Virus record (IMG/VR): IMGVR_UViG_3300042731_001312
Location: 37,110 to 101,109 of that record
Length of the DNA: 64,000 bases
DNA from: a virus
Reading direction: 5' to 3' (one strand)
The notes beneath the pieces are model-generated. The model did not search any database and had not been told where the DNA came from. It saw only the letters and a list, made by a program, of their open reading frames with translations. This document shows, piece after piece, positions 9,383-56,503 of this stretch; position 1 is the stretch's first letter, and each line of letters begins with the position of its first letter. A program made the translations under genes and the position numbers.

Positions 9383-9395
9383 AGATATATAAATC

Positions 9396-9767
9396 ATGAG
9401 AACATTTAATGAATATTTAGTAGAGCAAAAGATTACTGAGACTGATATGCAACTCTTACAAGAGGGTTTACAGTCTGAGTGGACTCCTGAACTAGAAGAA
9501 AAGGTAGATCTAGCTCTAGAACAATTTGTAACACAGTACCTAAACGAAGAGACTGGGCAATTTGATTTAGATAGATTAGAAGAAGATATAATTGAAGAGG
9601 GTCTACTAGGTTCTATTATTGGTGGTCTAACTGGTTTTGCATTAGGCAAATCAATTGGTAAAATGATCGCTAAGGTTCTCGGTATTCAAAAAGGTATCTT
9701 CTACGATTTATTAACCTCCAGATTAGTCGGTGCTGCCCTAGGCGCTGCAATGGGAAAAAGAATCTAA
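9396..9767 (+). CDS. Small probable internal head protein with CTS-like N-terminus and glycine-zipper C-terminus
   Basis: MRTFNEYLVE resembles the T4 CTS MKTYQEFIAE; late motif at 9384; C-terminal GLLGSIIGGLTGFALG. Confidence 0.5.
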   Translation: MRTFNEYLVEQKITETDMQLLQEGLQSEWTPELEEKVDLALEQFVTQYLNEETGQFDLDRLEEDIIEEGLLGSIIGGLTGFALGKSIGKMIAKVLGIQKGIFYDLLTSRLVGAALGAAMGKRI

Positions 9768-14079: not shown

Positions 14080-15588
14080 ATGGAACTAAGTTTAACAGAT
14101 AATAAGCAGTTTCTACGTGTTGATGAGGCGAGTGAGTTAGAGATAGAACAGCTTAACATCACTTTTAATCGTAGGATTGAGAACTGGCGATTCCACCCTC
14201 TTGTGAAAAAGGGTTTATGGGATGGCTATATCTCATATATTAAGGATGATAAATGGATTCCTTCTGGCTTATGGAAAGAGATAATGGACCTGTGTAAGCA
14301 GTATAAGTTTGAGCTTAAGATGAATGGCGTTACCTCGTTGTTCGATCCTAGTGTAAAGCAAGAAGAGTTCACAGAGTGGGCAGAACAGTATTTCGACGGC
14401 CATGAAATTACACCTAGAGACTATCAGATTGAGGCCGCATATAATATCTTAAGGTTTAGAAGATGTCTAAGTGAATTAGCAACATCAGCAGGTAAAACCC
14501 TGATAACGTATATGGCTCTTGCGTATATGTTAGAGAAGGGTAAAGCAGGCAGAGTATTACTTATTGTCCCAAACGTTTCGCTAGTCGTACAGGCCTCTGA
14601 GGACTTCATGGACTATAACTGGCGTGCAGCTACTAATATTAAAATACAACAGATCTACTCTGGTCAGAAAGTAAGACCCGGTAGAAACGTGGTAATCGGT
14701 ACATATCAATCCCTAGTTAAAAAGGATAAAGAATACTTTGAGCAGTTTGACGCTGTAATTATTGATGAGACTCATAAAGCCAAATCCACATCAATTAAAA
14801 CTATTCTACAAAAGTGTACTGCTGCAAACTATCGTTTTGGTTTATCGGGTACAATTCCAAAACCAAAAACATTAGATAGATTAACCTTAATGTCTCACAC
14901 CGGACCTGTGATTACAGAGGTTAATGCAAACTTCTTACAACAAGAAGGCCACATTGCAGGTTGTAATGTGAAAGTAATTAAAATGGATTATGCTCCACAA
15001 AGTACAAAGAATGCTTTTAGAGAGATGTCCCAAAACAGATATGAAAGTAAAGACGTTTTCAAATTCGAAAGCAATTATGTCATCAATTCAACAGGCCGCC
15101 TTAGTTTCATTTGCAACATTATTTCCAGAGTACGCGGCAATAGCCTTGTACTTTTCCACAGGATTGAACATGGTAAGAGAATCTATGAGAAACTTCGCCA
15201 AGATAGCGATAAGCCAATTTACTATGTTGATGGCAACACCGATAAAGACATCCGTGAAGAATATAAGAAGAAAATGGAAGCTGGCGCCCAGGTTGTTATT
15301 GTGGCTTCTTACGGTACATTTTCTACTGGTATTTCTATTAAAAAAATACACAATATCTTCTTTACAGAATCGTTTAAGTCGGAAGTCATAATTAGACAAT
15401 CGATCGGTCGAGGTCTAAGAAAACACCACACCAAATCAGAGGTTAATATTATTGATTTTGTAGATGATTTAAGCTCACCGGACTGGGATAATTACCTTAT
15501 CAGACACGCGAAGGCTAGGCAGAAGATCTACAAGGAGCAGAAGTTCCCTTTTGAGATAAAAAATGTAACTTTTGACGGTGATATATAA
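14080..15588 (+). CDS. uvsW: SF2 DNA helicase UvsW
   Basis: PRDYQ, LATSAGKT, IIDETH, GLSGT, ASYGTFSTGISIK, QSIGRGLR. Confidence 0.95.
   Translation: MELSLTDNKQFLRVDEASELEIEQLNITFNRRIENWRFHPLVKKGLWDGYISYIKDDKWIPSGLWKEIMDLCKQYKFELKMNGVTSLFDPSVKQEEFTEWAEQYFDGHEITPRDYQIEAAYNILRFRRCLSELATSAGKTLITYMALAYMLEKGKAGRVLLIVPNVSLVVQASEDFMDYNWRAATNIKIQQIYSGQKVRPGRNVVIGTYQSLVKKDKEYFEQFDAVIIDETHKAKSTSIKTILQKCTAANYRFGLSGTIPKPKTLDRLTLMSHTGPVITEVNANFLQQEGHIAGCNVKVIKMDYAPQSTKNAFREMSQNRYESKDVFKFESNYVINSTGRLSFICNIISRVRGNSLVLFHRIEHGKRIYEKLRQDSDKPIYYVDGNTDKDIREEYKKKMEAGAQVVIVASYGTFSTGISIKKIHNIFFTESFKSEVIIRQSIGRGLRKHHTKSEVNIIDFVDDLSSPDWDNYLIRHAKARQKIYKEQKFPFEIKNVTFDGDI
15580..15588 (+). promoter_or_regulatory. Late-type promoter (internal-protein block)
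   Basis: GATATATAA overlapping the uvsW stop. Confidence 0.75.
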
Positions 15589-15624
15589 TACTATAGTAAA
15601 GTATTAAAAATAAATTCAATAAAA

Positions 15625-17475
15625 ATGGGTTCATTAAAACTACAATCTTTTGAAGAGTTTGCAAACGCTTCTGCAAAGGCAGCTGCTGTAAAACTTGAAG
15701 AGGAACAAAGCGCTGCAAGAAACGCTGCAGCAGATCAATTTAAATCTCTATTAGCCGAGTTCGGCGCTACATCATTAAAAGATCTTAACGAAGAGGAAAG
15801 AGGCAAGTTTTACGCTAAACTTGGTGCTTCTGAAATCTCTGAGTCTGTAGCAATCATCGAAGAAGGCACGAGATCTCAAGTAGGTAGAATTACTAAAAGA
15901 GGTAAAATCGAATCAGTGTATATGCACTATGATGGTTATCCAGACCACATGCTACCTACAATTAAAAAAGGATATAAGGACGGAGCTAACGTTCAACTAC
16001 TGTTGAAGAAAGGAGGTGGCTCAGGCCTGGAAGCAGATCCAGCAAAGATTAATTTCTATGGAGATAAGCATGTATTGAAAGGTGACGCTAAAAATATTGA
16101 TAAGTATCTAAAGGATGCTGACTATGATGGTGGTGCAGAATTCGTTTACCTATATGATGAAAGAGATGGTAAATGGTATATGGCTGACATCTATGGCGGC
16201 GGTGGTTTAACACCAGCATTTGAGTCATTTATTATTAACGAAGCGTTTGTACCTTCTAAGGGTAATTTAAGAGACGCTAAGAAAGTGTCTAAGTCGTTAG
16301 AGCAAATTATGATGGAAGCGGTTGCTTTAACTAGAGATAAAGAGACTCACCTAGGCGCAGTAAAATACTTATTAATGTATGCACTAGAAGATGCTAACTT
16401 CCACAGCTATATGGAACCCGTAGCTAAGAAGATTGGCGGAAAGATCAGAACTATTATGGTATCGATCGATGAACTAGGTGGTATTGAACTTCCTATCGGT
16501 GCAAAAACAATCCAAAAATTCCTAGACCAAAGATACTCTAATTTATCTAGCGCAGCTGGATGGTCAGGTATCGGTCTTGTTGAGGGTGTTGCAATGTATC
16601 TAGATGGATGGGGCTTCTCAAAAGAGGCTCAAGCAATCGTAGATCAATTTAATCTAATCTGGCAAAATGAGTCAGTAATGAATGAGGGTAATGCATTCCT
16701 AGCAGCAAGAGCAAAAGCAATCGAGGAAGATGCTGAAGAGTTCGAGTTTAACGGTAAGACTTACCCGGTTATTAAAGAATCTGATGAGGCTATCTGTGAA
16801 GCAACTGTTGAGATGGATGCATTAGATCCAGATAATAAAGACTTCTTAAAGTTCTTAAAGAAGAACAGGGTTAAAATCATTAATAAAGTTATGGACGGTC
16901 CAGGCGGAGGTACACCAGTTATTACAATGCAGGGTAAAAGAAAAGACCTTGAAAAAGTATTAGCAGATCCAGAACTTGGTTGGGACGATCCAGATTTAGC
17001 AGAATATATTGAAGAAGGTAACGCTTTCGGTGCTGCAAGAGCTGAGGCTATTGCTAAAGGTGATGACAAATTCAAAGTAGGAGACGAAGAATATCCAGTT
17101 GAAGACGTTGACGCTGAAGATAAAGAGAACGCTGAAGAGTTTGCAGCAGAAGGTAATGCTTTCGGTGCTGCAAGAGCAGAGGCTATCGCTAAAGGCGAAA
17201 AAGAATTTACAGTAGACGGAGAAACTTACCCGGTTGAAGACGTTGACGCTGAAGATAAAGAGAACGCTGAAGAGTTTGCTAACGAAGAAGCAGTTACAGA
17301 GGCTGAAGTAAAATCAGACGAAGATTTTAAAGAGTATGCATTCTCTGTTTTACAAAAAGCATTCGGTGATAAATTTGATGAAGAAAAAGCACAAGAAGTT
17401 GTAGACGGTTTATTGTCTAAGCACGGTGAAGATTATGGTGCAGCAGTAGGTGCATTACAATCGTCATTAGGATAA
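15625..17475 (+). CDS. Modular probable internal head polyprotein
   Basis: LQSFEEF CTS-like motif; TRSQVG...YMHYDGYP domain; three EGNAF.AARA.AI repeats; modules separated by IEE/INE/MNE/VTE; late motif at 15580. Confidence 0.6.
   Translation: MGSLKLQSFEEFANASAKAAAVKLEEEQSAARNAAADQFKSLLAEFGATSLKDLNEEERGKFYAKLGASEISESVAIIEEGTRSQVGRITKRGKIESVYMHYDGYPDHMLPTIKKGYKDGANVQLLLKKGGGSGLEADPAKINFYGDKHVLKGDAKNIDKYLKDADYDGGAEFVYLYDERDGKWYMADIYGGGGLTPAFESFIINEAFVPSKGNLRDAKKVSKSLEQIMMEAVALTRDKETHLGAVKYLLMYALEDANFHSYMEPVAKKIGGKIRTIMVSIDELGGIELPIGAKTIQKFLDQRYSNLSSAAGWSGIGLVEGVAMYLDGWGFSKEAQAIVDQFNLIWQNESVMNEGNAFLAARAKAIEEDAEEFEFNGKTYPVIKESDEAICEATVEMDALDPDNKDFLKFLKKNRVKIINKVMDGPGGGTPVITMQGKRKDLEKVLADPELGWDDPDLAEYIEEGNAFGAARAEAIAKGDDKFKVGDEEYPVEDVDAEDKENAEEFAAEGNAFGAARAEAIAKGEKEFTVDGETYPVEDVDAEDKENAEEFANEEAVTEAEVKSDEDFKEYAFSVLQKAFGDKFDEEKAQEVVDGLLSKHGEDYGAAVGALQSSLG
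17014..17280 (+). repeat. 135-bp imperfect tandem repeat x2 (EGNAFGAARAEAIAKG...YPVEDVDAEDKENAEEFA)
   Basis: Units start at 17014 and 17149; a more diverged third copy lies near 16684. Confidence 0.9.
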
Positions 17476-17493
17476 ACAAAAACCAAACTTCTT

Positions 17494-18765
17494 ATGAAGA
17501 TTTATACAAACTTTCAAGAATTCTTAAACGAAAAAGTCCAGGTTAATAACTTGGACAATTTCGTATTTGAAGGTGGCGCCGCGGGCCACATGATGCACCC
17601 GTTTGATGACCATTCATTAACATTTGGTGATTTTAAAACTATCGTAAGATCTGCTTTACAAGGAGGTCTAGATTTTGAAGAGGCACCAACTGAAAAGACA
17701 GATGGCCAGAATGTATTCGCAACAGTAAAGGACGGTAAGGCTATGTTTGCCAGAAACAAGGGGCAATTAGCTAATCCACTTGACCTAAACGGTATTATTG
17801 AGATGTTTACTGGCCACGCTTCAAAGCTAGTTGAAGAAACATTCATCTTCGCCGCTAAAGATTTAGCAGAAGCACTGCCAAAGATCAAGGACCAATCGGT
17901 ATTCATGGACGGTAGGGCTTTTATCAACATGGAGCTTATTTACTCTAAGAACCCTAATGTAATCTATTACGACAGAGATGTTATTCAATTCCACGGTATG
18001 AAAGTTACCGATGGTAATGGTAATATCATTAGTGAAGAGAATATCGCAGCAGATATTGTAAAAGCACTACAAGACTTAAAGGCCGATGTGCAAAAGACCT
18101 TTACTATAATTCCCCCTCAAATTTTAAAGATAGGAAAAGACATTAACTTTGACGAGAGAGTCGGCTATTACGAAAAGGCGATAAATAAACTAAGAGATAC
18201 TTATAGTCTATCGGATCAAGATGAGGTTAAAATGTATCACGAGGCTTGGTGGAGAAACCAAATCGAAGAGAATTTTGCAGATTTAGACCCGGCATTAAAA
18301 GAGGGACTCTTATTAAGATGGGCGTACCTAGACAAGAAGACTCTAAATATGAGAGAGTTAAAGAAGGCAGTTACTCCAGAACAAGCAAAGGCCGTTAAAG
18401 ATTTTGATGGTCAAAGAAACAAGAAGTATAAAGAAAACATTCTACCTTTTGAGAACTTATTTTTAGAATTAGGCGCAGATGTTTTAAAGAATGTTTCTAA
18501 TTTTGTTGCTGCTAATCCAGAAGCTGAGAAAGCAAGATTACACAAGCAGATCAGAACTGAAGCTGACAAGGTTAAAAAGAACGGCGATCTAAAACAGATT
18601 GAGAAGGTAGAAAAAGAATTAAAAAGACTAGAAGGTATCGGCGGTATTGAGTCAATCATTCCAACCGAGGGCCTAGTCTTTAAATACAATGGTAAAACAT
18701 TCAAGTTAACTGGGACTTTTGCCGCTATTAACCAGTTAATGGGTATTATTAAATACGGTAGATAA
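17494..18765 (+). CDS. Ligase-fold nucleotidyltransferase (DUF6267-like)
   Basis: GGAAGHMMHPFD; motif I TEKTDGQN; motif IV/V EGLVFKYNGKTFK; N-terminal TNFQEFLNE CTS-like. Confidence 0.7.
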   Translation: MKIYTNFQEFLNEKVQVNNLDNFVFEGGAAGHMMHPFDDHSLTFGDFKTIVRSALQGGLDFEEAPTEKTDGQNVFATVKDGKAMFARNKGQLANPLDLNGIIEMFTGHASKLVEETFIFAAKDLAEALPKIKDQSVFMDGRAFINMELIYSKNPNVIYYDRDVIQFHGMKVTDGNGNIISEENIAADIVKALQDLKADVQKTFTIIPPQILKIGKDINFDERVGYYEKAINKLRDTYSLSDQDEVKMYHEAWWRNQIEENFADLDPALKEGLLLRWAYLDKKTLNMRELKKAVTPEQAKAVKDFDGQRNKKYKENILPFENLFLELGADVLKNVSNFVAANPEAEKARLHKQIRTEADKVKKNGDLKQIEKVEKELKRLEGIGGIESIIPTEGLVFKYNGKTFKLTGTFAAINQLMGIIKYGR

Positions 18766-18774
18766 TAAACTATT

Positions 18775-20637
18775 ATGGCATTACAGAATTTAAAAACATA
18801 TTTCGAAGGCGCTAACATATCAGACGTCGATAATCTTCTTAGCAACAAGTGTATTGTAACCGAGAAGATTGATGCATCTTCTTTTCACGTCAAAAGAGAC
18901 GGATCTGATTTTTTATTCTATAAGTCTGGCTCTAAACAAGAAATGGATCTAGTAGATCGCACGATTGTTAGATACTACGAGAATGCTATTAGATACTTTA
19001 GATCTGTATCTGAAGGCGCTGTAAAAGACATGCCATTCGACTGGAAATTTGGTTTTGATTATTTAGTAGATAATAAGACTGTTGATATTGAGTATGACAT
19101 ACTTCCAAAGTCTAATCTTATTCTAACGCATATCCAAGTTTTGCAACCATCTAATCCTACTAAGATTAGAAAGGTAATTAGAGACACTAAGGTCCTAAAT
19201 AAATGGGCAGATAAGTTAGGTGTCGCTGGACCTCCAGTTTTATTTGAGGGTCTATTAGACTCGGGCCAGAAAGATGCAATTAAAGCTCTATTGGCGATGT
19301 CAGTTAATGAGTTTGAGCAGAAATTTGAAGATAAAGATAAGCCTACATTTACTAGAAACGTCTTTGGTATTTTTAACCAGAACATGAAGCAATCAGCTTT
19401 AATGAATGACCTGTCTAAGGATGTTGCTGGCTTTATTGTTAACTTCCATGATGGAAAAGAGTTGAAGTCTTTTAAACTAGAGAAGTTTAATAAAAAACCG
19501 GCTGAAGAGAGAAAACCTTCAGACATGTATCAAATCACAATCTTAGATATTGTAGAGCACTTAACTCAATTTGACTTTGAATCAATACAACTAAAAGAAG
19601 AGCAATCAGATTTAAGATATTTAGAACTAATGTCAGGTGTTTTTAATGACTATGTCGAAAAGAATGCTACTAAATATATTGGCGCTAAATTTGATTCTGC
19701 TGACTTTTCAGAATCTCCTCTATTTGAATTAAACCACAAGTTTATTCAAAATGAAAAGACCTTAACATTAGTACAAGATAGAATCTTATCAGAGCTATTT
19801 AAAATTACATTAGGTTCTTTTAGAAAGAAGAGAAATAAAGAAACAGATATTATCAATGCCGATCTAATGAATACTATCAACGATATTGTAGAAAAGATTG
19901 AGGGTACGGTGATGGCAAAAACAAACGAAGGCGACGTTATGAATTTCAATCAATATTTATTAAACCAAAAGATTTCGGCACAAGTTAGTCCAATCACAGA
20001 GGGTTTAACTGTTAATTATCCAGAACAGGGTAGTAAGCCAGTTAACATGTTTGTTGGTAGATTCCAACCATTCACGTTAGGTCATGCTAAGGTGGTTGAA
20101 ACTATCTACAAGCAAAACGGACATCCAGTAGTTATCTTCTTAATTAAGTCTAAAACTAGAAAGGCAGAAGATGCATTTAAGAGACCTTATGATGAAGAAA
20201 CTCAAATGTCAATGTTAGACAAATTAAAGTCTAAATATCCTATTGAGAAAGTTTATATCTTAGATAGAGCAGCAATTGATCTAATGTTTAATACAATGAG
20301 AGCTGATGGCTACGAGCCAGTACTTTGGGGAACAGGAACTGATAGACTTAAGACCTATTCATACCAAGTCGATAAGCCAGAATATAGAGAAGATCTTGGA
20401 GTGAGAGATGATTTCGGTTTATTTGAAATACCAAGGACAGGTAAGAATATCTCAGCTACTCAGGTTAGAAACGCAATGTTAGATAACGACGAGAAGATGT
20501 TTAAAAAATTAACACCCAAAGGCATCCATAGTATGTATGGAGAATTAAAAACTAAATTAGAGGATTCAATGGGAGTAGTTGCGGAGTCATCGCAACCAGA
20601 GTTCTTAACCTTCGAAGCCTTTTTGAAGAATATATAA
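18775..20637 (+). CDS. Fusion of a degenerate RNA-ligase-like domain and a HIGH-family (cytidylyl/adenylyl)transferase
   Basis: IVTEKIDASSF at the N-terminus; GRFQPFTLGH, GTDR and ISATQVR in the C-terminal third. Confidence 0.75.
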   Translation: MALQNLKTYFEGANISDVDNLLSNKCIVTEKIDASSFHVKRDGSDFLFYKSGSKQEMDLVDRTIVRYYENAIRYFRSVSEGAVKDMPFDWKFGFDYLVDNKTVDIEYDILPKSNLILTHIQVLQPSNPTKIRKVIRDTKVLNKWADKLGVAGPPVLFEGLLDSGQKDAIKALLAMSVNEFEQKFEDKDKPTFTRNVFGIFNQNMKQSALMNDLSKDVAGFIVNFHDGKELKSFKLEKFNKKPAEERKPSDMYQITILDIVEHLTQFDFESIQLKEEQSDLRYLELMSGVFNDYVEKNATKYIGAKFDSADFSESPLFELNHKFIQNEKTLTLVQDRILSELFKITLGSFRKKRNKETDIINADLMNTINDIVEKIEGTVMAKTNEGDVMNFNQYLLNQKISAQVSPITEGLTVNYPEQGSKPVNMFVGRFQPFTLGHAKVVETIYKQNGHPVVIFLIKSKTRKAEDAFKRPYDEETQMSMLDKLKSKYPIEKVYILDRAAIDLMFNTMRADGYEPVLWGTGTDRLKTYSYQVDKPEYREDLGVRDDFGLFEIPRTGKNISATQVRNAMLDNDEKMFKKLTPKGIHSMYGELKTKLEDSMGVVAESSQPEFLTFEAFLKNI

Positions 20638-20656
20638 ACAAACAGATTATATTAAT

Positions 20657-21040
20657 ATGAGAAATATAAAAACATTCGAAGCGTTTAAAAACTCAGTAAA
20701 TGAGTCAATTCAATTCGGTTCTTATTATTATAGTACTAGAACAGCATTCGGTGAGCATAGTGACAACCTACCAGAAAAAGGCAATACAAAGTATTTAGTA
20801 TTTGCACATAATGAAGTAGATTTCTATGGCCAAAGAATTAGATTAGAAAACGGCGGTAGCAATAAACAACATATCGGCATTTTTGACGATGAGGCTAGTG
20901 CGGCAGACGCGTACAATACTGCTATGAAAAAACCAGATGGTGTTTATATTTCATTCTCAATGGGAACACTTTACGCAAAGTCTAAGTTCTCATTCCAATA
21001 TGAAGAAACACAGGGTAAACTAGCAAAAATTAAAGCATAA
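20657..21040 (+). CDS. Probable internal head protein
   Basis: MRNIKTFEAFKNSVNES (CTS-like plus cleavage site); late-motif variant overlapping the upstream stop. Confidence 0.55.
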   Translation: MRNIKTFEAFKNSVNESIQFGSYYYSTRTAFGEHSDNLPEKGNTKYLVFAHNEVDFYGQRIRLENGGSNKQHIGIFDDEASAADAYNTAMKKPDGVYISFSMGTLYAKSKFSFQYEETQGKLAKIKA

Positions 21041-21042
21041 TC

Positions 21043-23535
21043 ATGGCAACATTTGAAGACTTTTTATCAGAAGGTAAAAAAATACAAATCAAAAGAAAGT
21101 ATACAGAGAATCACCCTGCACAAACAGTGGGCAAGACTGCTAATGTAAGAAATGCAGTACTTAAAGCAATTGCTGATGGTATGGTAACAAGAGAAGAGTT
21201 TAACTCTATTATTGCTGAACTTTCTGCTAATTCTAGCCAATGGGCTTCTAGAAATAGAAAATACTTTAATGTTTCTGAAGAGGGCATTAAGCTTTCAAGA
21301 TGGGGTCGTAGAATTCTAGCTGAACTAGATGAAACTCCTAAAGCTGCTGAACTTAACGAGAAAGTTAAAGTTACAAAAGATAAATTCCCATACATTGAGT
21401 TTAAAGATGGTGGTAAGAAGTATGAAGTAGAATTTGACCAAGGTGATATTATTGACGACCACGGTAACGAGGGTAAAGACTGGTATTATGTCGGCGTTGA
21501 CCAATTTGGCGATGAGTGGGAAATTGATGTTTACACTGATTTCAGAGATGAGCCAGAAGATTGGTTTCATGATACTATTAAGAGAGTTGATGAGTCAAAA
21601 GTTAATGAAGCTAAATTTGTAAAAGAATTTGATAAAGCAGTTCTAGATGCTGAAACAGAACAAGATGTTTTAAAAGTATATCCTACAGCTGAATTTTATG
21701 TAGGTAAAATGTCACACTTCTTTGGAGAACTAGAACCAAACTTATTCTTTAAAGCTTATTATGCAGATTGGTATAAGAAAGATACTGGTAAATCAATTAA
21801 AGGTGACTTTAAAATTACTACAATCTACTCAGAGAAGGGTAGTAGATACGTAAACTTATATGTAGAAGAATCTGCAGTTACTGAAAACTATGAAGTAATC
21901 TGGTCTGACGGAATGAGAGGCCTGAAGAAATTCAGAAATGAAAGACAGGCTAGACAATATTTCGACGATAAGATCAAACAAAAGGGTATGAGAGATGTTG
22001 CTTTATATAGAGCAGGCTCTGGTTTTCACTCAACAACACAAACAGAATATGTAATTGCATTTTGGGGTGATGGCACTTACCTGGATAACGTATCTAAGAG
22101 AGATGCAGATCTAGCAGCTAAAAAAGTAGAAGAATCAGTAGTTAACGAGGCATTCAAATTCGGTACTAAAAATCAGTACTCAATGGATGATGTTAATGAT
22201 GGCTATGGTTTTTGGGGTACTTTAGAAATGCACTACGATGAAAAAGAGGTACAAGACCACTGGTTAGTCGCGTTTATTCACCTAACAGGTAACTTAGGCT
22301 TCTCTGATGCAGGTGCATTATATTTCCTAAACGCGAAATCAGGTAGATGGTTAGCAGATCAAGTTAACGATAAAGAGGGTATGAACTTTGATCTAATAGA
22401 TGTAATGGATGCATACGCAAAATCATCTCAATGGAAAAAATGGGCAAAAGAATATAACGACTATGCCCAAGAAGAATTAGCAGAAAATAATAATACAAAT
22501 ATGAAAACAGAATTCCTATTCGAGTCATTTAGTGATTTCGTTGGCGCTAATTTTCTCAACGAGAAATTAGGTAGCCAGATTATGGCTGATATTTTTATGT
22601 CTAATAAGCAAGGCAAAGCTGCTGCGCAAAACATTAAAACCTTAGCAAGGGGTTTTTATGGTATGGCTAAAGTAGCCCTAGATAAAATCCAGGATGAAGA
22701 TTTTATTGTGAGTAACGATCCAGGTAAAGTATTTAAAAATTACGGCGGACCTAACCACATTTTATTCTTTATTTCAGATAACGAGAAAGAGAACCCATAC
22801 TTCCCAGTAGATTCTTATGGTTCATTAAGAACAATCCCGGGCGGTGGTATTCTACTAGCAGCAATGTCTGGTGATAGAATGTTCTTCGCTAACGAGTGGT
22901 CTAGATGGTCAGGTGGCGGAACTTGGACTAAGCAAAAGAAGGGTGATGAAAGCCAAATTGGTGTTTCTCATAGATATAGAGGCTGGGATGCAACCGGACT
23001 TAACAACGGTAAGAGAATCTCAGAAGTTTCTGATAGAGTAATTGTACTTAACCTAGATTTAGTAAGACAAAAGTATTCTACTGCTCAATTAAGAGATGCT
23101 AGAGCTGCTGCTAAAGCAGGAGCTACCGCGTTCCAATCTGATAAAGACTTCAAGAAGGCTAATATGGCTAGATACCAACAGATTTTAGCCAATAAAGCAG
23201 CAAGCCTACCTTTAGACAGTATGGTTGAAGGTGCGATCGATATGTTGACTAAGCAGATCCAAGACGGTTTAAAGAAAGGTGAGAAGACTCAGTATAATGA
23301 AATTAAAATTGGAGAATCTCCTAAAGGTAGAGAAGTAAAAGCTAGAGATGCTTCTAGCCACATGTCTTCTATTCTTGATGACTACCAAAGATATTGTGAC
23401 TATGTTAAACAGGCTGAAGAGTCAGAGGCTAGATATGGAGAAAGAGAGTCTTACTATGAAAGAGAGTCTAAAGATTACGCGAAAAGAATTAAAGATAAGA
23501 TTAACAAAATAGAAACATTCGATTACGCTTGGTAA
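21043..23535 (+). CDS. Modular probable internal head polyprotein
   Basis: MATFEDFLSE; modules bounded by ELNE, ESKVNE, ESAVTE, ESVVNE, FLNE; second CTS-like ESFSDF after internal Met 22501. Confidence 0.6.
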   Translation: MATFEDFLSEGKKIQIKRKYTENHPAQTVGKTANVRNAVLKAIADGMVTREEFNSIIAELSANSSQWASRNRKYFNVSEEGIKLSRWGRRILAELDETPKAAELNEKVKVTKDKFPYIEFKDGGKKYEVEFDQGDIIDDHGNEGKDWYYVGVDQFGDEWEIDVYTDFRDEPEDWFHDTIKRVDESKVNEAKFVKEFDKAVLDAETEQDVLKVYPTAEFYVGKMSHFFGELEPNLFFKAYYADWYKKDTGKSIKGDFKITTIYSEKGSRYVNLYVEESAVTENYEVIWSDGMRGLKKFRNERQARQYFDDKIKQKGMRDVALYRAGSGFHSTTQTEYVIAFWGDGTYLDNVSKRDADLAAKKVEESVVNEAFKFGTKNQYSMDDVNDGYGFWGTLEMHYDEKEVQDHWLVAFIHLTGNLGFSDAGALYFLNAKSGRWLADQVNDKEGMNFDLIDVMDAYAKSSQWKKWAKEYNDYAQEELAENNNTNMKTEFLFESFSDFVGANFLNEKLGSQIMADIFMSNKQGKAAAQNIKTLARGFYGMAKVALDKIQDEDFIVSNDPGKVFKNYGGPNHILFFISDNEKENPYFPVDSYGSLRTIPGGGILLAAMSGDRMFFANEWSRWSGGGTWTKQKKGDESQIGVSHRYRGWDATGLNNGKRISEVSDRVIVLNLDLVRQKYSTAQLRDARAAAKAGATAFQSDKDFKKANMARYQQILANKAASLPLDSMVEGAIDMLTKQIQDGLKKGEKTQYNEIKIGESPKGREVKARDASSHMSSILDDYQRYCDYVKQAEESEARYGERESYYERESKDYAKRIKDKINKIETFDYAW

Positions 23536-23536
23536 T

Positions 23537-24733
23537 ATGCCTTCTGTAAGTAAGTCACAACAAAGATTAATGGGAATGGCCTATGCTGTTAAATCCGGCG
23601 ATATGGAACTCTCAGACATTGACCCAGCTTACAGAGATAAAGTAAAATCATTATCTGACGGAATGACAAAGAAAGACTTAAAGAAATACGCTGCAACAAA
23701 GCATGATGGTCTACCAGAGACGGTGGATGAGGCATTTATTGGACCTTTTGTATTTAATGACAGTATGTCTGATGAAGAATTACTAGGAATGTACAATGGA
23801 GCATTAGATGGCTATGCTAACTATGCTAAAGGAATGTATTACCCTAAATCGGATTACAAGAAAGCTTATCAAGAAATTGAAAAGATTTTAAAGAAGAGAG
23901 GAGTTTCAGTAGACGAAAGTGCACAAGGGGCTGTATCTTTAAATCCAGGCATGACTATCGGTGGTATTGGTGACCCGATGCTTCCAACAGCAACTGAATT
24001 TGGATCGGGCGACGTACCTGCAGTAGCAGATATTGACGACGACGAAGAAGAGGCTAAAAAAGATAATACAAAAACAAAGTTAGAGATGGAAAATTTACAT
24101 TTAACTTTCGATAGTTTCTTAAATGAAGCTTCTAATTTTAACGATCCAGTTTTAGTAGCTTTTAGAGCTGCTAGAATGAAGAGGGAAGAAGAGCTTGCAA
24201 AACCAAAGCGCAAGCCCCTTTATGGTAAACAAAGACAAAAAGCTGAAGATGATCTGTGGAATATTAGCCAAGACTTAAAAGATCTATATGCAGATAGAGG
24301 TCAAATGTTAATTGACATGGAACAAGAAGCAGAGGCTGAAGGTGGTCCAATTGCAGACGAATACGGAGGCAAATTAAATGATATTGAAGATCAAATTCAA
24401 GCGCTAATTGTTAAGAGAAATAAACTTGAAATGAAATTAGCAGAATCAGTAGTTAATGAAAAGAAGCTAGATAGAGAAGACATGATGGCTTGGATCGAAC
24501 AACACATGGATTTTGTAAGAACTACTGAAGAATTCAACGGTTCTCCAGGTGGCATCTGGGTTTCAGGTGAGAATGGCGACGAGTATAAAGGTAGAGTAAT
24601 CTATGCATACTACTCTGAAGACTACAAGAACAGAACATTTGGTGTAGATAACAGATGGGAAAAGGAACTTAATAAAAGAGGGTGGTATAGTGAATGGCAT
24701 GATGCAGGCACATCCATGATTTGGCCACTATAA
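23537..24733 (+). CDS. Modular probable internal head polyprotein, DUF3008-like N-terminus
   Basis: MPSVSKSQQRLMGMAYAVK...LKKYAATKHDGLPE; internal LTFDSFLNE and ESVVNE. Confidence 0.55.
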   Translation: MPSVSKSQQRLMGMAYAVKSGDMELSDIDPAYRDKVKSLSDGMTKKDLKKYAATKHDGLPETVDEAFIGPFVFNDSMSDEELLGMYNGALDGYANYAKGMYYPKSDYKKAYQEIEKILKKRGVSVDESAQGAVSLNPGMTIGGIGDPMLPTATEFGSGDVPAVADIDDDEEEAKKDNTKTKLEMENLHLTFDSFLNEASNFNDPVLVAFRAARMKREEELAKPKRKPLYGKQRQKAEDDLWNISQDLKDLYADRGQMLIDMEQEAEAEGGPIADEYGGKLNDIEDQIQALIVKRNKLEMKLAESVVNEKKLDREDMMAWIEQHMDFVRTTEEFNGSPGGIWVSGENGDEYKGRVIYAYYSEDYKNRTFGVDNRWEKELNKRGWYSEWHDAGTSMIWPL

Positions 24734-24758: not shown

Positions 24759-24789
24759 AGCCTGATATTTTTTTATGTCAGGCTTTTTT
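24759..24789 (+). terminator. Intrinsic terminator overlapping an early promoter
   Basis: agcctgata...tgtcaggct followed by a T-run, after the internal-protein block. Confidence 0.65.
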
Positions 24790-25122: not shown

Positions 25123-25276
25123 GAAAAAGAAACATGATGACAAATTAGACTTCAACGGAGGATGGACCTCTGGTGAGGCTGCTCATCATATTTCTAAGAA
25201 AATGACTCAACAAACAGTGCCTGATAAAACCAAGTATTCAAGAAAGAAGAAACATAAAAATAAAGACGATGAGTAA
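25115..25276 (+). CDS. Small basic protein with ArfA-like YxRKxKH motif
   Basis: ATG 25115 overlaps the upstream stop; ...PDKTKYSRKKKHKNK. Confidence 0.5.
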   Translation: MSKKKKHDDKLDFNGGWTSGEAAHHISKKMTQQTVPDKTKYSRKKKHKNKDDE

Positions 25277-51230: not shown

Positions 51231-51569
51231 ATGAAAATTATTAAAACATTTGAAGAGTTTATCCAGGAGGATGCCCTAAAAGCAGGCGAGGAGTCTAAGG
51301 TCTACGTTGAAGATCTGAAATTAGACTCAGGTGCAACTATTAAATCTGCTGAAATTTTAGGTGCTATCACCGCGTCTGCAACCGAGAACGATTTTAAAGA
51401 TTATTTCTTTAATGAGTACGGTAATGATGCATTCGCAGAGGGTGAAATGGACATCTTAGTAAAATACTACCTAGACAAATCCGCTGAAGAAGCTGAAGAG
51501 GAAAAAGAAGCCGAGAAGGAAGAAGGCGAAGAAGGCGGCGAGGAAGAAGATCCATTAGCTGGCATCTAA
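51231..51569 (+). CDS. Acidic prohead core protein (gp67/68 position)
   Basis: Between portal and protease; MKIIKTFEEFIQE; acidic tail. Confidence 0.55.
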   Translation: MKIIKTFEEFIQEDALKAGEESKVYVEDLKLDSGATIKSAEILGAITASATENDFKDYFFNEYGNDAFAEGEMDILVKYYLDKSAEEAEEEKEAEKEEGEEGGEEEDPLAGI

Positions 51570-51632: not shown

Positions 51633-53819
51633 ATGGCAAAATTAAATGACTTATTGATTGTCGAAATGTCTTCGTCTCAATTGAGCGTCGCTCAATCAGA
51701 GAACAAAGATTATATTCTAGAGGGTATCTTTGGAGAAATTGACTCCAAAAATAAAAATAATCGTATCTATACTGAAGATGAGTATGTACCTCAGATTCAG
51801 CAACTGCAAGATAAGATTAAATCATCAAAGCTATTAGGTGAGTTAGATCACCCACAGCAATTTGATGTTTCCCTAAAGAATGTATCACACATTATCGAAG
51901 AACTTTATTACGACAAAGACAACAAACAAGTAAAAGGTAAAATCAGACTTTTAGATACTGATGCTGGTAGACAAGCTAAAGCTCTTGTTGATGCAGGTGT
52001 ACCTTTACAAATTTCTTCTAGAGCGGCAGGTGCTGTTGAATCTAATGGTAAAGTAAAAATCAAGCAATTATTTACTTATGACCTAGTAGCAGATCCTGGT
52101 TTCGCTAATGCCGAGTTAAAGAGAGTAAACGAATCTTATGGATTCGATAACGAATCAGGTCTATGGATCTATGAAATGAACGGCGAAGGAGAAGTTGCAC
52201 AAGAAATTACTGAAACCAATATTGAAACAAATAATAATAAAAACATGGCAGAATTTGTAAAGGCTGAAGATTTCCACAAGTATTCTGAGTACTTAGCTGG
52301 TGAAATTAAGTCAATTAAAGAGTCTATCGACGCGAAAAGCGAAGATACTACGTTAGAGAACGTAAAGTCTCATAACGACCACATCGTCGAAAGCGTAAAT
52401 ACTCTCTCAGAATACGTAGAGTATTTAGCCGGCAAATTAGACGAGTCAATTCAATATACAGAGCATGTTGCTGAGAAAGCTGACCAAGGTATTTCTTACA
52501 CTGAGACTGTTGCAGAAAAATTAGATCAAGGTATTCAATACTCTGAGCACTTAGCTGAAGCTATCGGTAAAGTTAAGGATTTCGCTAATTATTTAGCTGA
52601 AGCACACAATGAAGGTACAGATACTGCTAAGAATTTATTATCTTATGTAGAATACTTAAAAGAAAACCTACAATCTGTTTCTGAGTATGCTGAATATATC
52701 GCAACACAAATCAATGAAAATTTAGTAACTGAAGAAGAAACTGAAGAAGTAGCTGAAGAAGAAGTTGAAGAAACTGAAGAGGCACACCACGAAGAAGTTG
52801 AAGAAACTGAAGAAGTAGCTGAAGAAGATGAGGCTGGTGAAGGTGCTGAAGAAGTAGTTGACGAAGAAGACGAAGCTGGTGAAGGTGCTGAAGAAGTAGT
52901 TGACGAAGAAGATGAGGCTGGTGAAGGTGCTGAAGAAGTAGTTGACGAAGAAGAAGTAGCTGAAGAAGATGAGGCTGGTGAAGGTGCTGAAGAAGTAGTT
53001 GACGAAGAAGAAGCTGCAGAAGAAGTTGAAGAAACTGAAGAAGTTACTGAAGACGATGATGCTGAAGAGCCTGGTCAAGAAAAAGAAGACGCTGAAGATG
53101 ACATCGAAGAAATTGGTGACAATTCAGAAGAAGGTGATGTAGATCCTAAAGGTGACATCGGTGAGCCTGCAGAAGAATTAGAAGATGAAACTGTAAAATC
53201 AGACGCTGAAGTTGAAGATGAGACTGAAGAGGCTGAACCAGGTGAGTCTGAAGAAGAGGCTGAAGGTGAAGATGGCGCACACGACCCATTAGAATCTTAC
53301 AAAAAAGAAATTTCATCTAAATTAGACGCTCTAGTTGAAGCTGCACAGGTTAAAGAAAATGAAAACCCATCTTTCTTTAAGATTGTATCTGCCACAACTC
53401 AAGAGAAATATAACGCTCTAAATGAAGATGCTAAAACTGAAGTTAGACAAAAGGTTGCTAAGAGAGGTTTCATGACTGAAGCACAAATCAACGCTATCGT
53501 TGAAAGTGCAGAAGCAGTAGTTGAATCTAGAAACTCTGAGCCTTTCTTTATCACTGCAATGCCTGCAGAGTACAAAGAGAAATTTGAAGCTCTAACTGAA
53601 GCAAAACAAAATCAAATCAAAGCTCAAGCTAATTACCATACTCTAAATACTGAGTATCAAGTTAGAAACTTCTGGGAAACTAGAGATCTAAGAGAGGTAA
53701 AAGTTGACCTAGAAAAATTACAAGCGGTAAACGAATCAGCAGTAAAATCTGATGAGAAGAAGCCACTTTATGATGTTTCTAACTACGCTGATAGCTTAAA
53801 GAAAAGATTTAAAAAGTAA
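51633..53819 (+). CDS. gp21: Prohead protease fused to scaffold (gp21-gp22-like)
   Basis: LEGIF, NKNNRIY, GELDHP, VSH, ISSRAAG, YDLVADPG in the first ~170 aa, then a long acidic helical scaffold-like region; directly upstream of the major capsid gene. Confidence 0.88.
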   Translation: MAKLNDLLIVEMSSSQLSVAQSENKDYILEGIFGEIDSKNKNNRIYTEDEYVPQIQQLQDKIKSSKLLGELDHPQQFDVSLKNVSHIIEELYYDKDNKQVKGKIRLLDTDAGRQAKALVDAGVPLQISSRAAGAVESNGKVKIKQLFTYDLVADPGFANAELKRVNESYGFDNESGLWIYEMNGEGEVAQEITETNIETNNNKNMAEFVKAEDFHKYSEYLAGEIKSIKESIDAKSEDTTLENVKSHNDHIVESVNTLSEYVEYLAGKLDESIQYTEHVAEKADQGISYTETVAEKLDQGIQYSEHLAEAIGKVKDFANYLAEAHNEGTDTAKNLLSYVEYLKENLQSVSEYAEYIATQINENLVTEEETEEVAEEEVEETEEAHHEEVEETEEVAEEDEAGEGAEEVVDEEDEAGEGAEEVVDEEDEAGEGAEEVVDEEEVAEEDEAGEGAEEVVDEEEAAEEVEETEEVTEDDDAEEPGQEKEDAEDDIEEIGDNSEEGDVDPKGDIGEPAEELEDETVKSDAEVEDETEEAEPGESEEEAEGEDGAHDPLESYKKEISSKLDALVEAAQVKENENPSFFKIVSATTQEKYNALNEDAKTEVRQKVAKRGFMTEAQINAIVESAEAVVESRNSEPFFITAMPAEYKEKFEALTEAKQNQIKAQANYHTLNTEYQVRNFWETRDLREVKVDLEKLQAVNESAVKSDEKKPLYDVSNYADSLKKRFKK
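52821..53003 (+). repeat. 42-bp tandem repeat x4 (EEDEAGEGAEEVVD)
   Basis: Units at 52821, 52863, 52905 and 52962. Confidence 0.92.
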
Positions 53820-53931: not shown

Positions 53932-55326
53932 ATGGCAAATTTAATTAACGAAGCTGAGATCAGAAATACTTGGGCTCCTATTATCGAGGAAGCTACTGGT
54001 ATCAATGAATCAGCAAAACTAGCTTGGATGTCGGAATACTGCCACAATCACAAGCTTTATGAAGATGCTAACATCGTATCTCTTAACCCAGGTATGACAT
54101 TAGCAGGTATGGGTGACACTGCGTTCCCAACATCAACTGCAAACGGTTCTGGTGACAAAGCTCCAACTTTATTACCATTAGCAATGCAAGTTGCTGCACA
54201 AACTATCGGTCTTGATTTAGTACCTGTAGTTCCTATGGCTGGTCCAATGGGTCTACTTTCTTACCTAGACTTCGTATACGAAGGTGGTACTTTAGGTGGT
54301 GCTAAGCCTAACTACGCTGACGGTCGTGTTGCTCCAACTTACATCAAAGCTACTGCAGGTGCTGTTGTAGCAGATGCTACTTACGCAACTAAGTTAGATC
54401 AAAAGTCAAGAATTGACGGTAAAGACATCTGGAAAATCGAAGACGCAGGTCAAGCTGCTATCGGTGCTGAAGAGTCTTACGTTGACTTATTCACATCTAT
54501 TTCAGGTGTTGAATTAGTTGCTGCTCTAGAAGACCACATTCCTGGTTTCTCTGGTGCTAACGATGCAGGCGCGCCAATGTCAAGAGGTTTAGGTGAATCT
54601 ACTCCTGACAAAGTAATGGGTCTAAGCTTATTCTCTAAGTCAGTTTCTGCAGAAACTTTCCAAGTTGCTGCTGCTGTAACTAGAGAGCAAGTTCAAGATC
54701 TTAAGCAATTCGGTGTTGACGCTGTTGCTCAAGTAGAAGCAGTTTTAACTAACGAATTGACTCAGTCAATCAACAACCACATCTTAACCAAGATGAGATC
54801 TATCGCTGGTGAAAACCTATTCGGTGCTGGTCAGAAATTAGATCTAGATCTTTCTGCTGGTGAAACTAAAGGTGACGCACACAGAAGAATCTTAACAGCT
54901 ATCTTAGCTTCTGCGAACTTAATCGCTCAAAGAGGTAGAAGAGGTGCTGGTAACTTCGCTGTAGTAGGCGGTAAAGTTGCTTCTGCATTACAAGGTGTTG
55001 CTGGTTTCGTTGCTTACCCAATGGCTAACACTGTAAACCAAGTTGCTGGTGCAATCTATCCTTTAGGTTCGATCGCTGGTATCAACGTTTACACTGACCC
55101 ATCAATCTCTTTCGACTCAGTAGAAGTACTAGTTGGTAGAAAAGGTGACGGTAACGGTCCAGGTCTTGTATTCATGCCTTACTTAATGGCTGAATCAGTA
55201 CAAGCTATCGTTGAAGGCACAATGGCTCCTAAAGTAGCTGTTAAGTCTAGATACGCTCTAGTTGAAGCTGGTTTCCACCCAGGTACTCAATACGAGAAAT
55301 TTGAACTAGAAAACTTCAATCTATAA
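53932..55326 (+). CDS. gp23: Major capsid protein
   Basis: VPMAGPMG, KSVSAET, EQVQDLK, ELTQSIN, GAGNF, FMPY, VKSRYAL; strong codon bias. Confidence 0.93.
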   Translation: MANLINEAEIRNTWAPIIEEATGINESAKLAWMSEYCHNHKLYEDANIVSLNPGMTLAGMGDTAFPTSTANGSGDKAPTLLPLAMQVAAQTIGLDLVPVVPMAGPMGLLSYLDFVYEGGTLGGAKPNYADGRVAPTYIKATAGAVVADATYATKLDQKSRIDGKDIWKIEDAGQAAIGAEESYVDLFTSISGVELVAALEDHIPGFSGANDAGAPMSRGLGESTPDKVMGLSLFSKSVSAETFQVAAAVTREQVQDLKQFGVDAVAQVEAVLTNELTQSINNHILTKMRSIAGENLFGAGQKLDLDLSAGETKGDAHRRILTAILASANLIAQRGRRGAGNFAVVGGKVASALQGVAGFVAYPMANTVNQVAGAIYPLGSIAGINVYTDPSISFDSVEVLVGRKGDGNGPGLVFMPYLMAESVQAIVEGTMAPKVAVKSRYALVEAGFHPGTQYEKFELENFNL

Positions 55327-55384: not shown

Positions 55385-55432
55385 ACCAGCAAATCTAGAT
55401 ATATAAATCATAAGAAACATAAATTGATTAAT

Positions 55433-56503
55433 ATGCTTAATACAAATAAAATCAAATTGTTTGAAGAATTTTCAGCTGGTGAAATCACTAGACCTGAACA
55501 AAATGTAGCTCCCGCTGCTAAAACACAAACAGATTCGATCGCAGTTGACAAGACTGATGGTGCTCAAATTAGAGCAGAGATTATCAAAGACGTTGATGCT
55601 ATTTTAACTAATCTAGAAACTCTATCAACTAGAATCCAAGAAAATCTTAATGGACTTAAAGCAGATGTTGAGGCTGGCGTAGCTGACGAAGACATCCTAG
55701 AAGCCCTTGTAACTATTAACGAAGCCGGCGAAATGAGCAAAAAGCTAATGGATATTATCTGGTATAAGCCAAAGGCTAAAAAGGCCATGGATAAAGTTAA
55801 TAAGATCAAACAAAATGCAGTTGCTATCGATATAGCTGCAAAAGGACTAGACGGTAGTGATGATAAAGAAAAGGCTAAGAAAGATGCTTTAAAATTAAAG
55901 GCAGATTCTGCTAAGAAGAAAGCTGATGATTTAGAAAAGGCAGTTAGAGACAAATTCTCAGATAGAAGTGAAGTTGTAAAAAAGGCTATCGCTAACAAAG
56001 ATATTGAAGGTAGATTAGATGCTATCAAACAAGAGACCGGTATGTCTGATGACCCAAAGAAAAAAGCAGAGCTTAAAAACCAAATGGGTGAACTACAAAC
56101 TCAATTAAAGAAAGAGGAAGACGCTATTAAGCAAATTGAGAAAGACGTTGATCCTGCTGAAGTTGATAATGCAAAACAAGAAATGAAAGATCATCAAGAG
56201 GCTATTAAAGCTTTAAAGAAAGATGGCTGGAAAGATGGTGGACTTCCAAAAGATAAAGAGGGTGAAACCAAAACGATGACTGGACCTGATGGCGATAAGC
56301 AAATATTCCATAAAGTAGGAAAGGCTCCAGCTGGTAAAGGCTCTCCATCCGGTTCCGGAGCAAATGAATCTATTGTTAAAGATGGTTCAGGTAGAACTAA
56401 AGCAGAAAAGATTAATTTAGATACTTTAGAAGAAAAACAAGATCCAATTATTTATGAAGGTATGAGTATTTCTGATAAATTTAAAGCTTTAATGAATAGG
56501 TAA
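55433..56503 (+). CDS. Lys/Glu-rich helical probable internal head protein
   Basis: IKLFEEF CTS-like motif; late motif at 55398; IQE/INE/ANES sites. Confidence 0.5.
   Translation: MLNTNKIKLFEEFSAGEITRPEQNVAPAAKTQTDSIAVDKTDGAQIRAEIIKDVDAILTNLETLSTRIQENLNGLKADVEAGVADEDILEALVTINEAGEMSKKLMDIIWYKPKAKKAMDKVNKIKQNAVAIDIAAKGLDGSDDKEKAKKDALKLKADSAKKKADDLEKAVRDKFSDRSEVVKKAIANKDIEGRLDAIKQETGMSDDPKKKAELKNQMGELQTQLKKEEDAIKQIEKDVDPAEVDNAKQEMKDHQEAIKALKKDGWKDGGLPKDKEGETKTMTGPDGDKQIFHKVGKAPAGKGSPSGSGANESIVKDGSGRTKAEKINLDTLEEKQDPIIYEGMSISDKFKALMNR

What the first reader, a model, noticed from the sequence alone, without database searches (positions are those of the whole stretch)
15580..24733. 9-kb block of probable capsid-packaged, protease-processed polyproteins
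Seen: all six ORFs carry (T/S/N)FxxF/Y motifs (LQSFEEF, TNFQEFLNE, MNFNQYL and LTFEAFL, IKTFEAF, ATFEDFLSE and ESFSDF, LTFDSFLNE). The large ORFs are strings of unrelated small modules separated by ESxV(N/T)E or (I/L)xE linkers. The block starts at a late motif and ends at a terminator. Known: T4 internal proteins use the CTS MKTYQEFIAE, gp21 cleaves after I/L-x-E, and IPI* is an injected anti-restriction factor. Inference: an expanded cassette-like system that loads a dozen or more small effector domains into the head as polyproteins and releases them at maturation.
Basis: partly seen in the sequence, partly recalled or inferred. Interest (0 to 1): 0.8.

Follow-up and report, generated by a model that had tools for sequence, protein, structure and literature searches.

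The report
Head-cargo polyprotein operon of T4-like phage
An uncultured marine T4-like phage has a 9-kb late operon whose six proteins carry T4-style "load into the head, then cut here" tags and are built from swappable modules joined at the likely cutting motif of the phage's own head protease. They are probably capsid cargo delivered with the DNA, but neither packaging nor cutting has been measured.

Summary
Six co-directional ORFs (15625-24733) lie between a late-promoter motif (GATATATAA, 15580) and a strong terminator (24759-24784).

- **Leader.** Four ORFs start with a leader of the form M-K-x-h-K-[TL]-F-E-x-F-[IL]-N-E; the same motif recurs inside O1, O3, O5 and O6 and at the C-terminus of O3. 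It keeps the four positions that mutagenesis showed to matter in the T4 capsid targeting sequence.
- **Head link.** The same leader heads the small acidic gene between portal and prohead protease, and the gene after the major capsid gene.
- **Linker.** ES-x-V-(N/T)-E occurs 5 times in the 101-kb contig, all in this block. It is 14-fold enriched in the syntenic block of 80 related contigs, and modules are swapped there at exactly these joints.
- **Protease sites.** The S77 protease-scaffold fusion carries conserved V-(N/T)-E sites at its own domain borders.
- **Capsid mimic.** O6 holds a copy of the capsid protein's N-terminal arm.

The cargo is not only "small effectors": O2 is a conserved RNA-ligase-fold enzyme, and O3 is a second ligase-like domain plus a nucleotidyltransferase.

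This scan has noted similar blocks on other uncultured T4-like phages. Verdict: new variant of the T4 internal-protein system.

The parts
15580..15588 (+). Late-promoter motif GATATATAA, overlapping the last codons of the upstream helicase gene
   Evidence: 14 copies in the window against 3.25 expected, most of them directly upstream of portal, protease, capsid and tail genes. Kept at this place in 42 of 52 distinct related loci.
15625..17475 (+). O1, 616 aa. N-terminal leader; internal leader at residues 195-206 (16207-16242); ESVMNE joint at 349-354 (16669-16686); three GNAF repeats; conserved C-terminal module 560-616.
   Evidence: PHROG 1987 and 5922 modules of unknown function.
17494..18765 (+). 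O2, 423 aa. Leader (residues 1-13) followed by an RNA-ligase-fold enzyme with an invariant E-K-T-D-G motif.
   Evidence: AF2 pLDDT 85, with residues 1-31 below 50. All top Foldseek hits are RNA or DNA ligases; the best is T4 Rnl1 at E 1.8e-3. 54-96% identical in 80 loci.
18775..20637 (+). O3, 620 aa. Ligase-like N-domain; conserved leader-like linker ending I-T-E at residues 388-409 (19936-20001); HIGH nucleotidyltransferase; leader-like C-terminal tail at 611-620 (20605-20634).
   Evidence: PF01467 at E 2e-7; NCBIfam adenylyl/cytidylyltransferase; linker and tail conserved in 51 orthologs.
20657..21040 (+). O4, 127 aa. Leader ending S-V-N-E followed by one module.
   Evidence: The module occurs fused behind another cassette in L066 and L067.
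21043..23535 (+). O5, 830 aa. Leader, constant N-domain, four cassettes, internal leader at 493-507 (22519-22563), constant C-domain 508-830. Joints end at residues 107, 189 (21592-21609), 281 (21868-21885), 369 (22132-22149) and 507.
   Evidence: All five [VILM][NT]E sites of O5 lie at module borders. AF2 pTM 0.31, with pLDDT below 50 at every joint, although the middle cassettes are low throughout.
23537..24733 (+). O6, 398 aa. DUF3008 N-domain; capsid-protein N-arm mimic at residues 132-159 (23930-24013); internal leader at 189-197 (24101-24127); ESVVNE joint at 303-308 (24443-24460).
   Evidence: PF11450 at E 6e-10. O6 133-159 against capsid protein 49-75: 18 of 27 identical, E 2e-8.
24759..24784 (+). 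Intrinsic terminator closing the operon
   Evidence: 10-bp stem with 4 G-C pairs, followed by a T run.
51231..51569 (+). w112: small acidic protein between portal and protease (the position of T4 genes 67/68), bearing the same leader
   Evidence: The leader is kept in all listed homologs from 39 distinct sequences. Late motif at 51219.
51633..53819 (+). Prohead protease (Peptidase_S77, residues 27-138) fused to an acidic scaffold-like region. Conserved R-V-N-E|S directly after the protease domain and V-(N/T)-E near the C-terminus.
   Evidence: Pfam S77 47.7 bits and S80; alignment of 37 homologs.
53932..55326 (+). Major capsid protein (Gp23 family). Invariant K-L-Y-E|D-A at residue 44, followed by the length-variable arm that is copied in O6.
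55424..56503 (+). w359: Lys/Glu-rich protein after the capsid gene, with a leader-like N-terminus
   Evidence: Late motif at 55398.

Best explanation
The block is a late operon for capsid cargo. An N-terminal, internal or C-terminal leader (F-x-x-F-[IL]-x-E) docks each polypeptide onto the scaffold core of the prohead, as the T4 capsid targeting sequence does. The gp21-family (S77) protease then cuts after the Glu of the leaders and of the ES-x-V-(N/T)-E joints. This would free about 20 modules that stay in the head and enter the next cell with the DNA. They include an RNA-ligase-fold enzyme, a ligase-like domain plus a nucleotidyltransferase, a DUF3008 domain and a peptide copied from the capsid protein's N-arm. 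Because cassettes are cut apart anyway, fusion, fission and in-frame exchange at the joints are tolerated, which would explain the rapid shuffling. Shown: the motifs, their distribution, the shuffling, the promoter, the folds. Inferred: docking, cutting, retention, injection and every function after entry.
For: (1) The T4 IPII and IPIII leader is MKTYQEFIAE. Mutagenesis places targeting at residues 4 and 7 and processing at residues 8 and 10 (PMC9026906). The leader here keeps aromatic, +3 aromatic, +4 Ile/Leu and +6 Glu. (2) Synonymous codons at conserved leader positions follow background usage (TTT/TTC 72/28 against 72/28), so selection acts on the peptide. (3) The leader also heads w112 and w359 in the head module, in all listed relatives. 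It is absent from the replication enzymes checked. (4) In the O2 model the leader is disordered and outside the fold. It is retained on the O2 ortholog of a 462-kb phage at 34% identity. (5) A late-promoter motif stands in front of the block with none inside it, and this is conserved in relatives. (6) Joints are exclusive to leader-bearing proteins and coincide with module breakpoints. One downstream cassette is found behind several different upstream cassettes. (7) The protease-scaffold fusion has conserved V-(N/T)-E at its domain borders, with the same N/T alternation. T4 sites include I-T-E and L-T-E (PMC5694885). (8) The O6 mimic of the capsid arm co-varies with the cognate capsid gene in the window and in the record of L067.
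Against: There are no proteomic, N-terminal or cleavage data for this clade. The block lies among replication genes, and no terminator separates it from the helicase gene, so early read-through is possible. One V-T-E lies inside the ligase-like motif I of O3 (residues 28-30), so such sites cannot all be cut. The Microcystis phage Mel-JY01 homolog is a nucleotidyltransferase-ligase fusion without a leader. The O6 N-terminus has no leader. The V-V codons of the joint are biased (GTA GTT) and AGY serine codons are depleted, so some conservation is at the DNA level. pLDDT of the middle O5 cassettes is low throughout, so the dips there are uninformative.
Confidence: 0.55

Rival explanations
1. The six proteins are ordinary cytoplasmic multi-domain proteins, for instance an RNA-repair and nucleotide-metabolism set, that are never packaged. 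On this reading the leader is a common N-terminal helix with another role, and the joints are simply interdomain linkers.
For: The block sits between the helicase/primase and the phosphoesterase, hypermodification and polymerase genes. O2 and O3 are conserved enzymes. A metallophosphoesterase with a PHROG 'RNA ligase' match follows the terminator. The Mel-JY01 fusion lacks a leader. Late motifs also precede the ssb and nrdB genes.
Against: This does not explain why the same leader heads the gp67/68-position gene and the gene after the capsid gene. It does not explain the match to all four functional CTS positions, the V-(N/T)-E sites in the protease-scaffold, or the capsid-arm copy in O6. ES-V-V-N-E is not a typical flexible linker.
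Confidence: 0.25
2. Leaders and joints are mainly DNA-level recombination cassettes (microhomology that lets genes and modules be swapped in frame), and the encoded peptides are by-products.
For: Combinatorial exchange happens exactly at the joints. The V-V codons of the joint are biased to GTA GTT and AGY serine codons are depleted.
Against: Leader codons follow background usage. The Ser (TCA/TCT), Asn and Glu codons of the joint vary about as background. On O2 orthologs the leader pattern persists while its sequence drifts. This rival is compatible with the main reading, since a cleavage site can double as a joint.
Confidence: 0.1
3. The leader is a sliding-clamp or other replisome docking peptide. 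Aromatic-acidic peptides of this kind bind the T4/RB69 clamp, which would recruit repair enzymes to DNA.
For: The F-x-x-F acidic pattern resembles clamp-binding tails (my own knowledge of RB69 and T4). The block lies in the replication region.
Against: In this phage the polymerase, the RNase H-like protein and the SGNH enzyme end in L-F at the C-terminus; no block protein does. Head-core proteins carrying the leader have no reason to bind a clamp.
Confidence: 0.05

Closest known systems
Phage T4 internal proteins IPI, IPII, IPIII and Alt: capsid targeting sequence plus gp21 processing
   Same: A short N-terminal propeptide with aromatic residues three apart, then Ile/Leu, x, Glu. A gp21-family protease is present. 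Cargo genes are scattered outside the head cluster and are hypervariable between relatives. Enzymes can be cargo (Alt). C-terminal propeptides also exist (Alt L-T-E-619). Sources; PMC3012670.
   Different: Here the cargo is strung into polyproteins of up to 830 residues with repeated internal joints and internal or C-terminal leaders. The P2 residue is mostly Asn or Thr. Cargo includes ligase-fold and nucleotidyltransferase enzymes. Nothing has been shown experimentally.
Ejection and inner-body proteins of giant phages phiKZ, 201phi2-1 and SPN3US
   Same: Many head proteins are processed after Glu at a short motif by a gp21-related protease, often at several sites per protein (PMC5694885). The protease domain here also matches Peptidase_S80.
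   Different: The motif differs (A/S-x-E there). No shared leader of the CTS type and no cassette exchange at the sites has been described there, and there is no sequence similarity of the cargo.
Polyvalent proteins of phages and conjugative elements (Iyer et al. 2017, PMC5512222)
   Same: Long chains of unrelated domains, predicted to travel with the DNA and to be processed into active pieces, with highly variable architectures.
   Different: Those rely on in-chain zincin-like or other peptidase domains and on MuF/portal fusions. None of their signature domains was found here. Here the cutter would be the prohead protease acting at a repeated short motif.
T4 Rnl1 / fungal Trl1 RNA ligases
   Same: The O2 model's best structural matches are these ligases, and it has an invariant K-x-D-G motif.
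   Different: Matches are weak (E 1.8e-3, TM about 0.25). There is no sequence-profile match to any solved ligase. Activity is untested.

Membership tests
T4-type capsid targeting sequence (CTS) cargo | N-terminal propeptide of 10-19 residues with targeting residues at positions 4 and 7 (aromatic) of the T4 IPIII leader | tested here: met
   The leader has F (74%) or Y/L, then F (86%) or Y three residues later. The first aromatic sits at residues 3-9 in most of 130 distinct leaders. T4 reference sequences. Functional positions: PMC9026906.
T4-type capsid targeting sequence (CTS) cargo | Processing residues: hydrophobic at P3 and Glu at P1 (positions 8 and 10 of IPIII) | tested here: met
   +4 is L/I in 50% of leaders and +6 is E in 52%. 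O2, O4 and O5 in the window end L-N-E, V-N-E and L-S-E. The O1 leader lacks the Glu at +6.
T4-type capsid targeting sequence (CTS) cargo | A gp21-family prohead protease encoded by the same phage | tested here: met
   Peptidase_S77 at 47.7 bits (cut-off 27), residues 27-138 of the 728-aa protein; PHROG 207 at E 1e-32.
T4-type capsid targeting sequence (CTS) cargo | Protein physically present in proheads and virions and cut at the predicted site | not testable with these tools
   The clade is uncultured. No paper or proteome was found.
Polyvalent proteins (Iyer et al. 2017) | In-chain processing peptidase (zincin-like MPTase) or MuF/portal fusion, together with known conflict domains | tested here: not met
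   Pfam, PHROG and NCBIfam scans of O1-O6 show none.
ATP-dependent RNA/DNA ligase superfamily (O2) | Nucleotidyltransferase fold with a motif I lysine (K-x-D-G) | tested here: met
   E67-K68-T69-D70-G71 is invariant in 22 orthologs. All top Foldseek hits are ligases, though weak.
ATP-dependent RNA/DNA ligase superfamily (O2) | Sequence-profile membership in a described ligase family | tested here: not met
   No Pfam, PHROG, NCBIfam or PDB-profile match.

The most novel reading that the evidence does not exclude
Marine T4-like phages, and their giant relatives, load a whole enzyme and effector kit into the head as polyproteins. The cutting motif of the prohead protease doubles as an in-frame recombination joint, making the injected payload freely evolvable. 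The kit includes pre-made RNA-ligase and nucleotidyltransferase enzymes and a peptide that mimics the capsid protein's own N-arm to dock on or compete at the shell.
Probability: 0.4. Interest if true: 0.8.

Novelty: new variant of a known kind. Interest (0 to 1): 0.62.

Why it matters
If true, it extends the T4 internal-protein idea from three small proteins to a modular, polyprotein-encoded payload that is widespread in ocean phages. It would mean that enzymes such as RNA ligases can arrive ready-made with the genome, before any phage gene is expressed. It would show how one short peptide can serve at once as protease site and as shuffling joint. It would also give a sequence rule (leader plus joint) for predicting injected proteins in uncultured T4-like phages, and a natural set of tags for loading foreign proteins into capsids.

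Tried and rejected
- **DNA relatives.** A megablast of the block against cultured phages found nothing.
- **Family and PDB searches for O2.** Sequence and profile searches of O2 against PDB, Pfam, PHROG and NCBIfam gave no ligase match. Only the fold search did.
- **O2 and O3 as paralogs.** BLAST finds no similarity between them.
- **First O5 alignment.** MAFFT misplaced the module fragments (A2), so that alignment was discarded. Full-length collinear homologs were used instead (A3).
- **Fold search with the O5 model.** It gave only weak winged-helix-type hits for the N-domain, for example the T4 MotA activation domain at E 0.16. I do not build on this.
- **ESM Atlas.** It gave no usable hit for the O5 C-domain and only viral hypothetical clusters for O1.
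- **w112 in cultured phages.** It has no match there, so its gp67/68 identity rests on position, size and acidic tail only.
- **Clamp-binding reading of the leader.** Rejected, because the clamp tail in this phage is a C-terminal L-F that no block protein has.
- **Literature.** No paper on Mel-JY01 is held, and Repoila et al. 1994 could not be read.
Full report
**Setting.** The window is the right-hand 64 kb of a 101-kb viral contig. It encodes T4-type replication genes: a gp32-like ssb, primase, a UvsW-like helicase, a split DNA polymerase, RNR, UvsX, a DnaB-like helicase and SbcCD. It also encodes a T4-type head module: portal, an S77 protease, and a Gp23-family capsid protein. The nearest capsid proteins among database phages are uncultured huge phages and Lak phages, at 49% identity or less.

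**The observation.** Six + strand ORFs fill 15625-24733 with gaps of 1-19 bases.
- The leader opens O1, O2, O4 and O5. It also lies inside O1, O3, O5 and O6 and closes O3.
- In 80 syntenic loci from IMG/VR, dozens of otherwise unrelated ORFs in the same block begin with it: 48% of distinct block ORFs, against 10% of the ORFs classed as non-block, many of which are block ORFs of loci lacking a downstream marker.
- The hexapeptide ES-x-[VILM]-[NT]-E occurs five times in the contig's roughly 32,000 residues, all five in the block.
- In the relatives it is 14-fold enriched in the block. Nine of the ten 'outside' hits turn out to be in leader-bearing ORFs.

**Modules are real units.**
- Relatives keep the order helicase, O1, O2, O3, O4, O5, O6, phosphoesterase. 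O1, O5 and O6 are mosaics.
- The segment O5 170-285 sits inside O1 homologs in several loci. O1 380-464 sits inside O5 homologs. O5 371-483 sits in an O6 homolog. O4 appears as the back half of a larger ORF.
- One downstream cassette is found behind at least five different upstream cassettes, always across the hexapeptide.
- All five [VILM][NT]E sites of O5 lie at module borders.
- Internal BLAST breakpoints lie within 12 residues of such sites two to three times more often than random positions do. For each of the three proteins the observed share exceeds every one of 2000 randomisations. HSP ends from related sequences are not independent, so this is indicative only.
- The O5 family consists of a constant N-domain, zero to four cassettes, an internal leader and a constant C-domain.
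- The AF2 model of O5 has pTM 0.31 and pLDDT below 50 at every joint. The middle cassettes are poorly modelled throughout, so the test is clean only for the joints at 97-107, 184-192 and 478-507.

**Why the leader looks like a capsid targeting sequence.**
- T4 IPII and IPIII begin MKTYQEFIAE and IPI begins MKTFKEF (read from AF158101).
- A review of Black's mutagenesis states that targeting depends on residues 4 and 7 and processing on residues 8 and 10 (PMC9026906).
- The leader here conserves exactly these positions: aromatic, aromatic at +3, Ile/Leu at +4, Glu at +6.
- Codon usage at these positions equals background, so the peptide, not the DNA, is under selection.
- The leader also opens the 112-residue acidic protein encoded between portal and protease, which is the place, size and composition of T4 gp67/68. 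It also opens the protein after the capsid gene. This holds in all listed relatives.
- In the confident O2 model (pLDDT 85) residues 1-31 are disordered and outside the fold.
- The O2 ortholog of the 462-kb phage LR756500, only 34% identical, still starts with the leader and sits in the same synteny.

**Why the joints look like protease sites.**
- gp21-family proteases cut after Glu in a short motif; T4 examples are I-T-E and L-T-E in Alt (PMC5694885).
- The phage's own protease is fused to an acidic scaffold-like region. In 37 homologs it has an invariant R-V-N-E|S right after the protease domain and a conserved [VI]-[NT]-E near the C-terminus, with the same Asn/Thr alternation as the joints.
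- The capsid protein keeps an invariant K-L-Y-E|D-A at residue 44.
- The joint's codons are partly biased (GTA GTT for Val-Val, few AGY serines) while Ser third positions, Asn and Glu vary as background. Descent or gene conversion at the DNA level and selection on the peptide therefore both seem to act. A cleavage site that doubles as an in-frame recombination joint fits both.

**Expression.**
- GATATATAA occurs 14 times in the window (3.25 expected), 13 of them on the + strand.
- It lies just upstream of the tail-fibre gene, portal, w112, protease, capsid gene, w359 and other genes, and at 15580 in front of O1.
- There is none inside the block, and a strong terminator follows O6.
- The motif is kept in front of O1 homologs in 42 of 52 distinct loci.
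- Caveats: the motif also precedes the ssb and nrdB genes, and nothing stops read-through from the helicase gene.

**The cargo.**
- O2 has an RNA-ligase fold (best match T4 Rnl1; also Trl1 and archaeal Rnl3) and an invariant K-x-D-G.
- O3 has a K-I-D-A motif in a ligase-like N-half and a PF01467 nucleotidyltransferase C-half.
- In Microcystis phage Mel-JY01 a nucleotidyltransferase and an O2-like ligase are fused in one gene near the terminase and prohead protease genes, so the two activities probably work together.
- O6 starts with DUF3008.
- Other modules match only viral hypothetical proteins.

**An unexpected link to the shell.**
- O6 residues 133-159 are 67% identical to capsid protein residues 49-75 (E 2e-8).
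- By alignment to T4 gp23, this stretch lies where gp23 is cut and its N-arm begins.
- In five related records where both genes could be read, four have an O6-type cassette with the same G-M-G...P...G-S-G-D pattern as the capsid arm. In the window and in the record of L067 the two copies share lineage-specific residues.
- In both proteins a hydrophobic-x-Glu site lies a few residues upstream.

**Weighing.**
- The capsid-cargo reading explains all of the above with one mechanism borrowed from T4. I put it at 0.55.
- The main rival, unpackaged cytoplasmic enzymes, keeps 0.25. Its support is the replication-gene neighbourhood, the leaderless Mel-JY01 fusion, the V-T-E inside motif I of O3, and the complete lack of protein data.
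- A purely DNA-level cassette reading and a clamp-docking reading are weaker.

**Prior art.**
- The literature describes the T4 CTS, hypervariable internal proteins (PMC3012670), multi-site processing in giant phages (PMC5694885) and polyvalent proteins (PMC5512222).
- I found no paper describing leader-plus-joint polyprotein cargo in marine T4-like phages.
- This scan has noted similar blocks in other uncultured T4-like phages. Those notes are unchecked and do not count as evidence.

Noticed in passing
window 23930-24013 (O6 residues 132-159) and 54073-54156 (capsid protein residues 48-75); L067:16661 and L155; L023:16299 and L152: An O6-type cassette copies the length-variable N-arm of the major capsid protein. 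It shares lineage-specific residues with the cognate capsid gene in at least two genomes. This suggests gene conversion, or a shared partner such as the shell, the protease or the scaffold.
   Followed up: partly
window 20605-20634 and L060, L065, L076 (O3 orthologs of about 1115 aa): Nearly all O3 orthologs end in a leader-like tail (L-T-F-E-x-F-I-x-x-I, then stop). In three loci the same motif continues into about 500 further residues. The tail is therefore either a C-terminal targeting peptide or the stump of a lost fusion.
   Followed up: partly
window 25269-25946: A calcineurin-type metallophosphoesterase just after the terminator has a PHROG 'RNA ligase' match to its N-terminal part. Together with O2 and O3 it could form an RNA end-healing and sealing set. 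It has no leader.
   Followed up: no
window 9396-9767, with late motif at 9384: A 123-residue leader-bearing ORF after a conserved 183-residue gene. Its relatives carry an ES-x-[IV]-T-E site and a glycine-zipper C-terminus. It may be a further cargo or membrane-active peptide.
   Followed up: no
window 16681-17300 (O1 residues about 353-559): Three copies of a module of about 45 residues beginning G-N-A-F-x-A-A-R-A, each preceded by a Glu. This looks like a tandem cassette duplication inside O1.
   Followed up: no
window 21130-21330 (O5 residues 30-96): The constant N-domain of O5 gives weak winged-helix-type fold hits, including the T4 MotA activation domain (E 0.16, 22% identity over 83 columns). 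This is a lead only.
   Followed up: no
None of the six block proteins does.
   Followed up: partly
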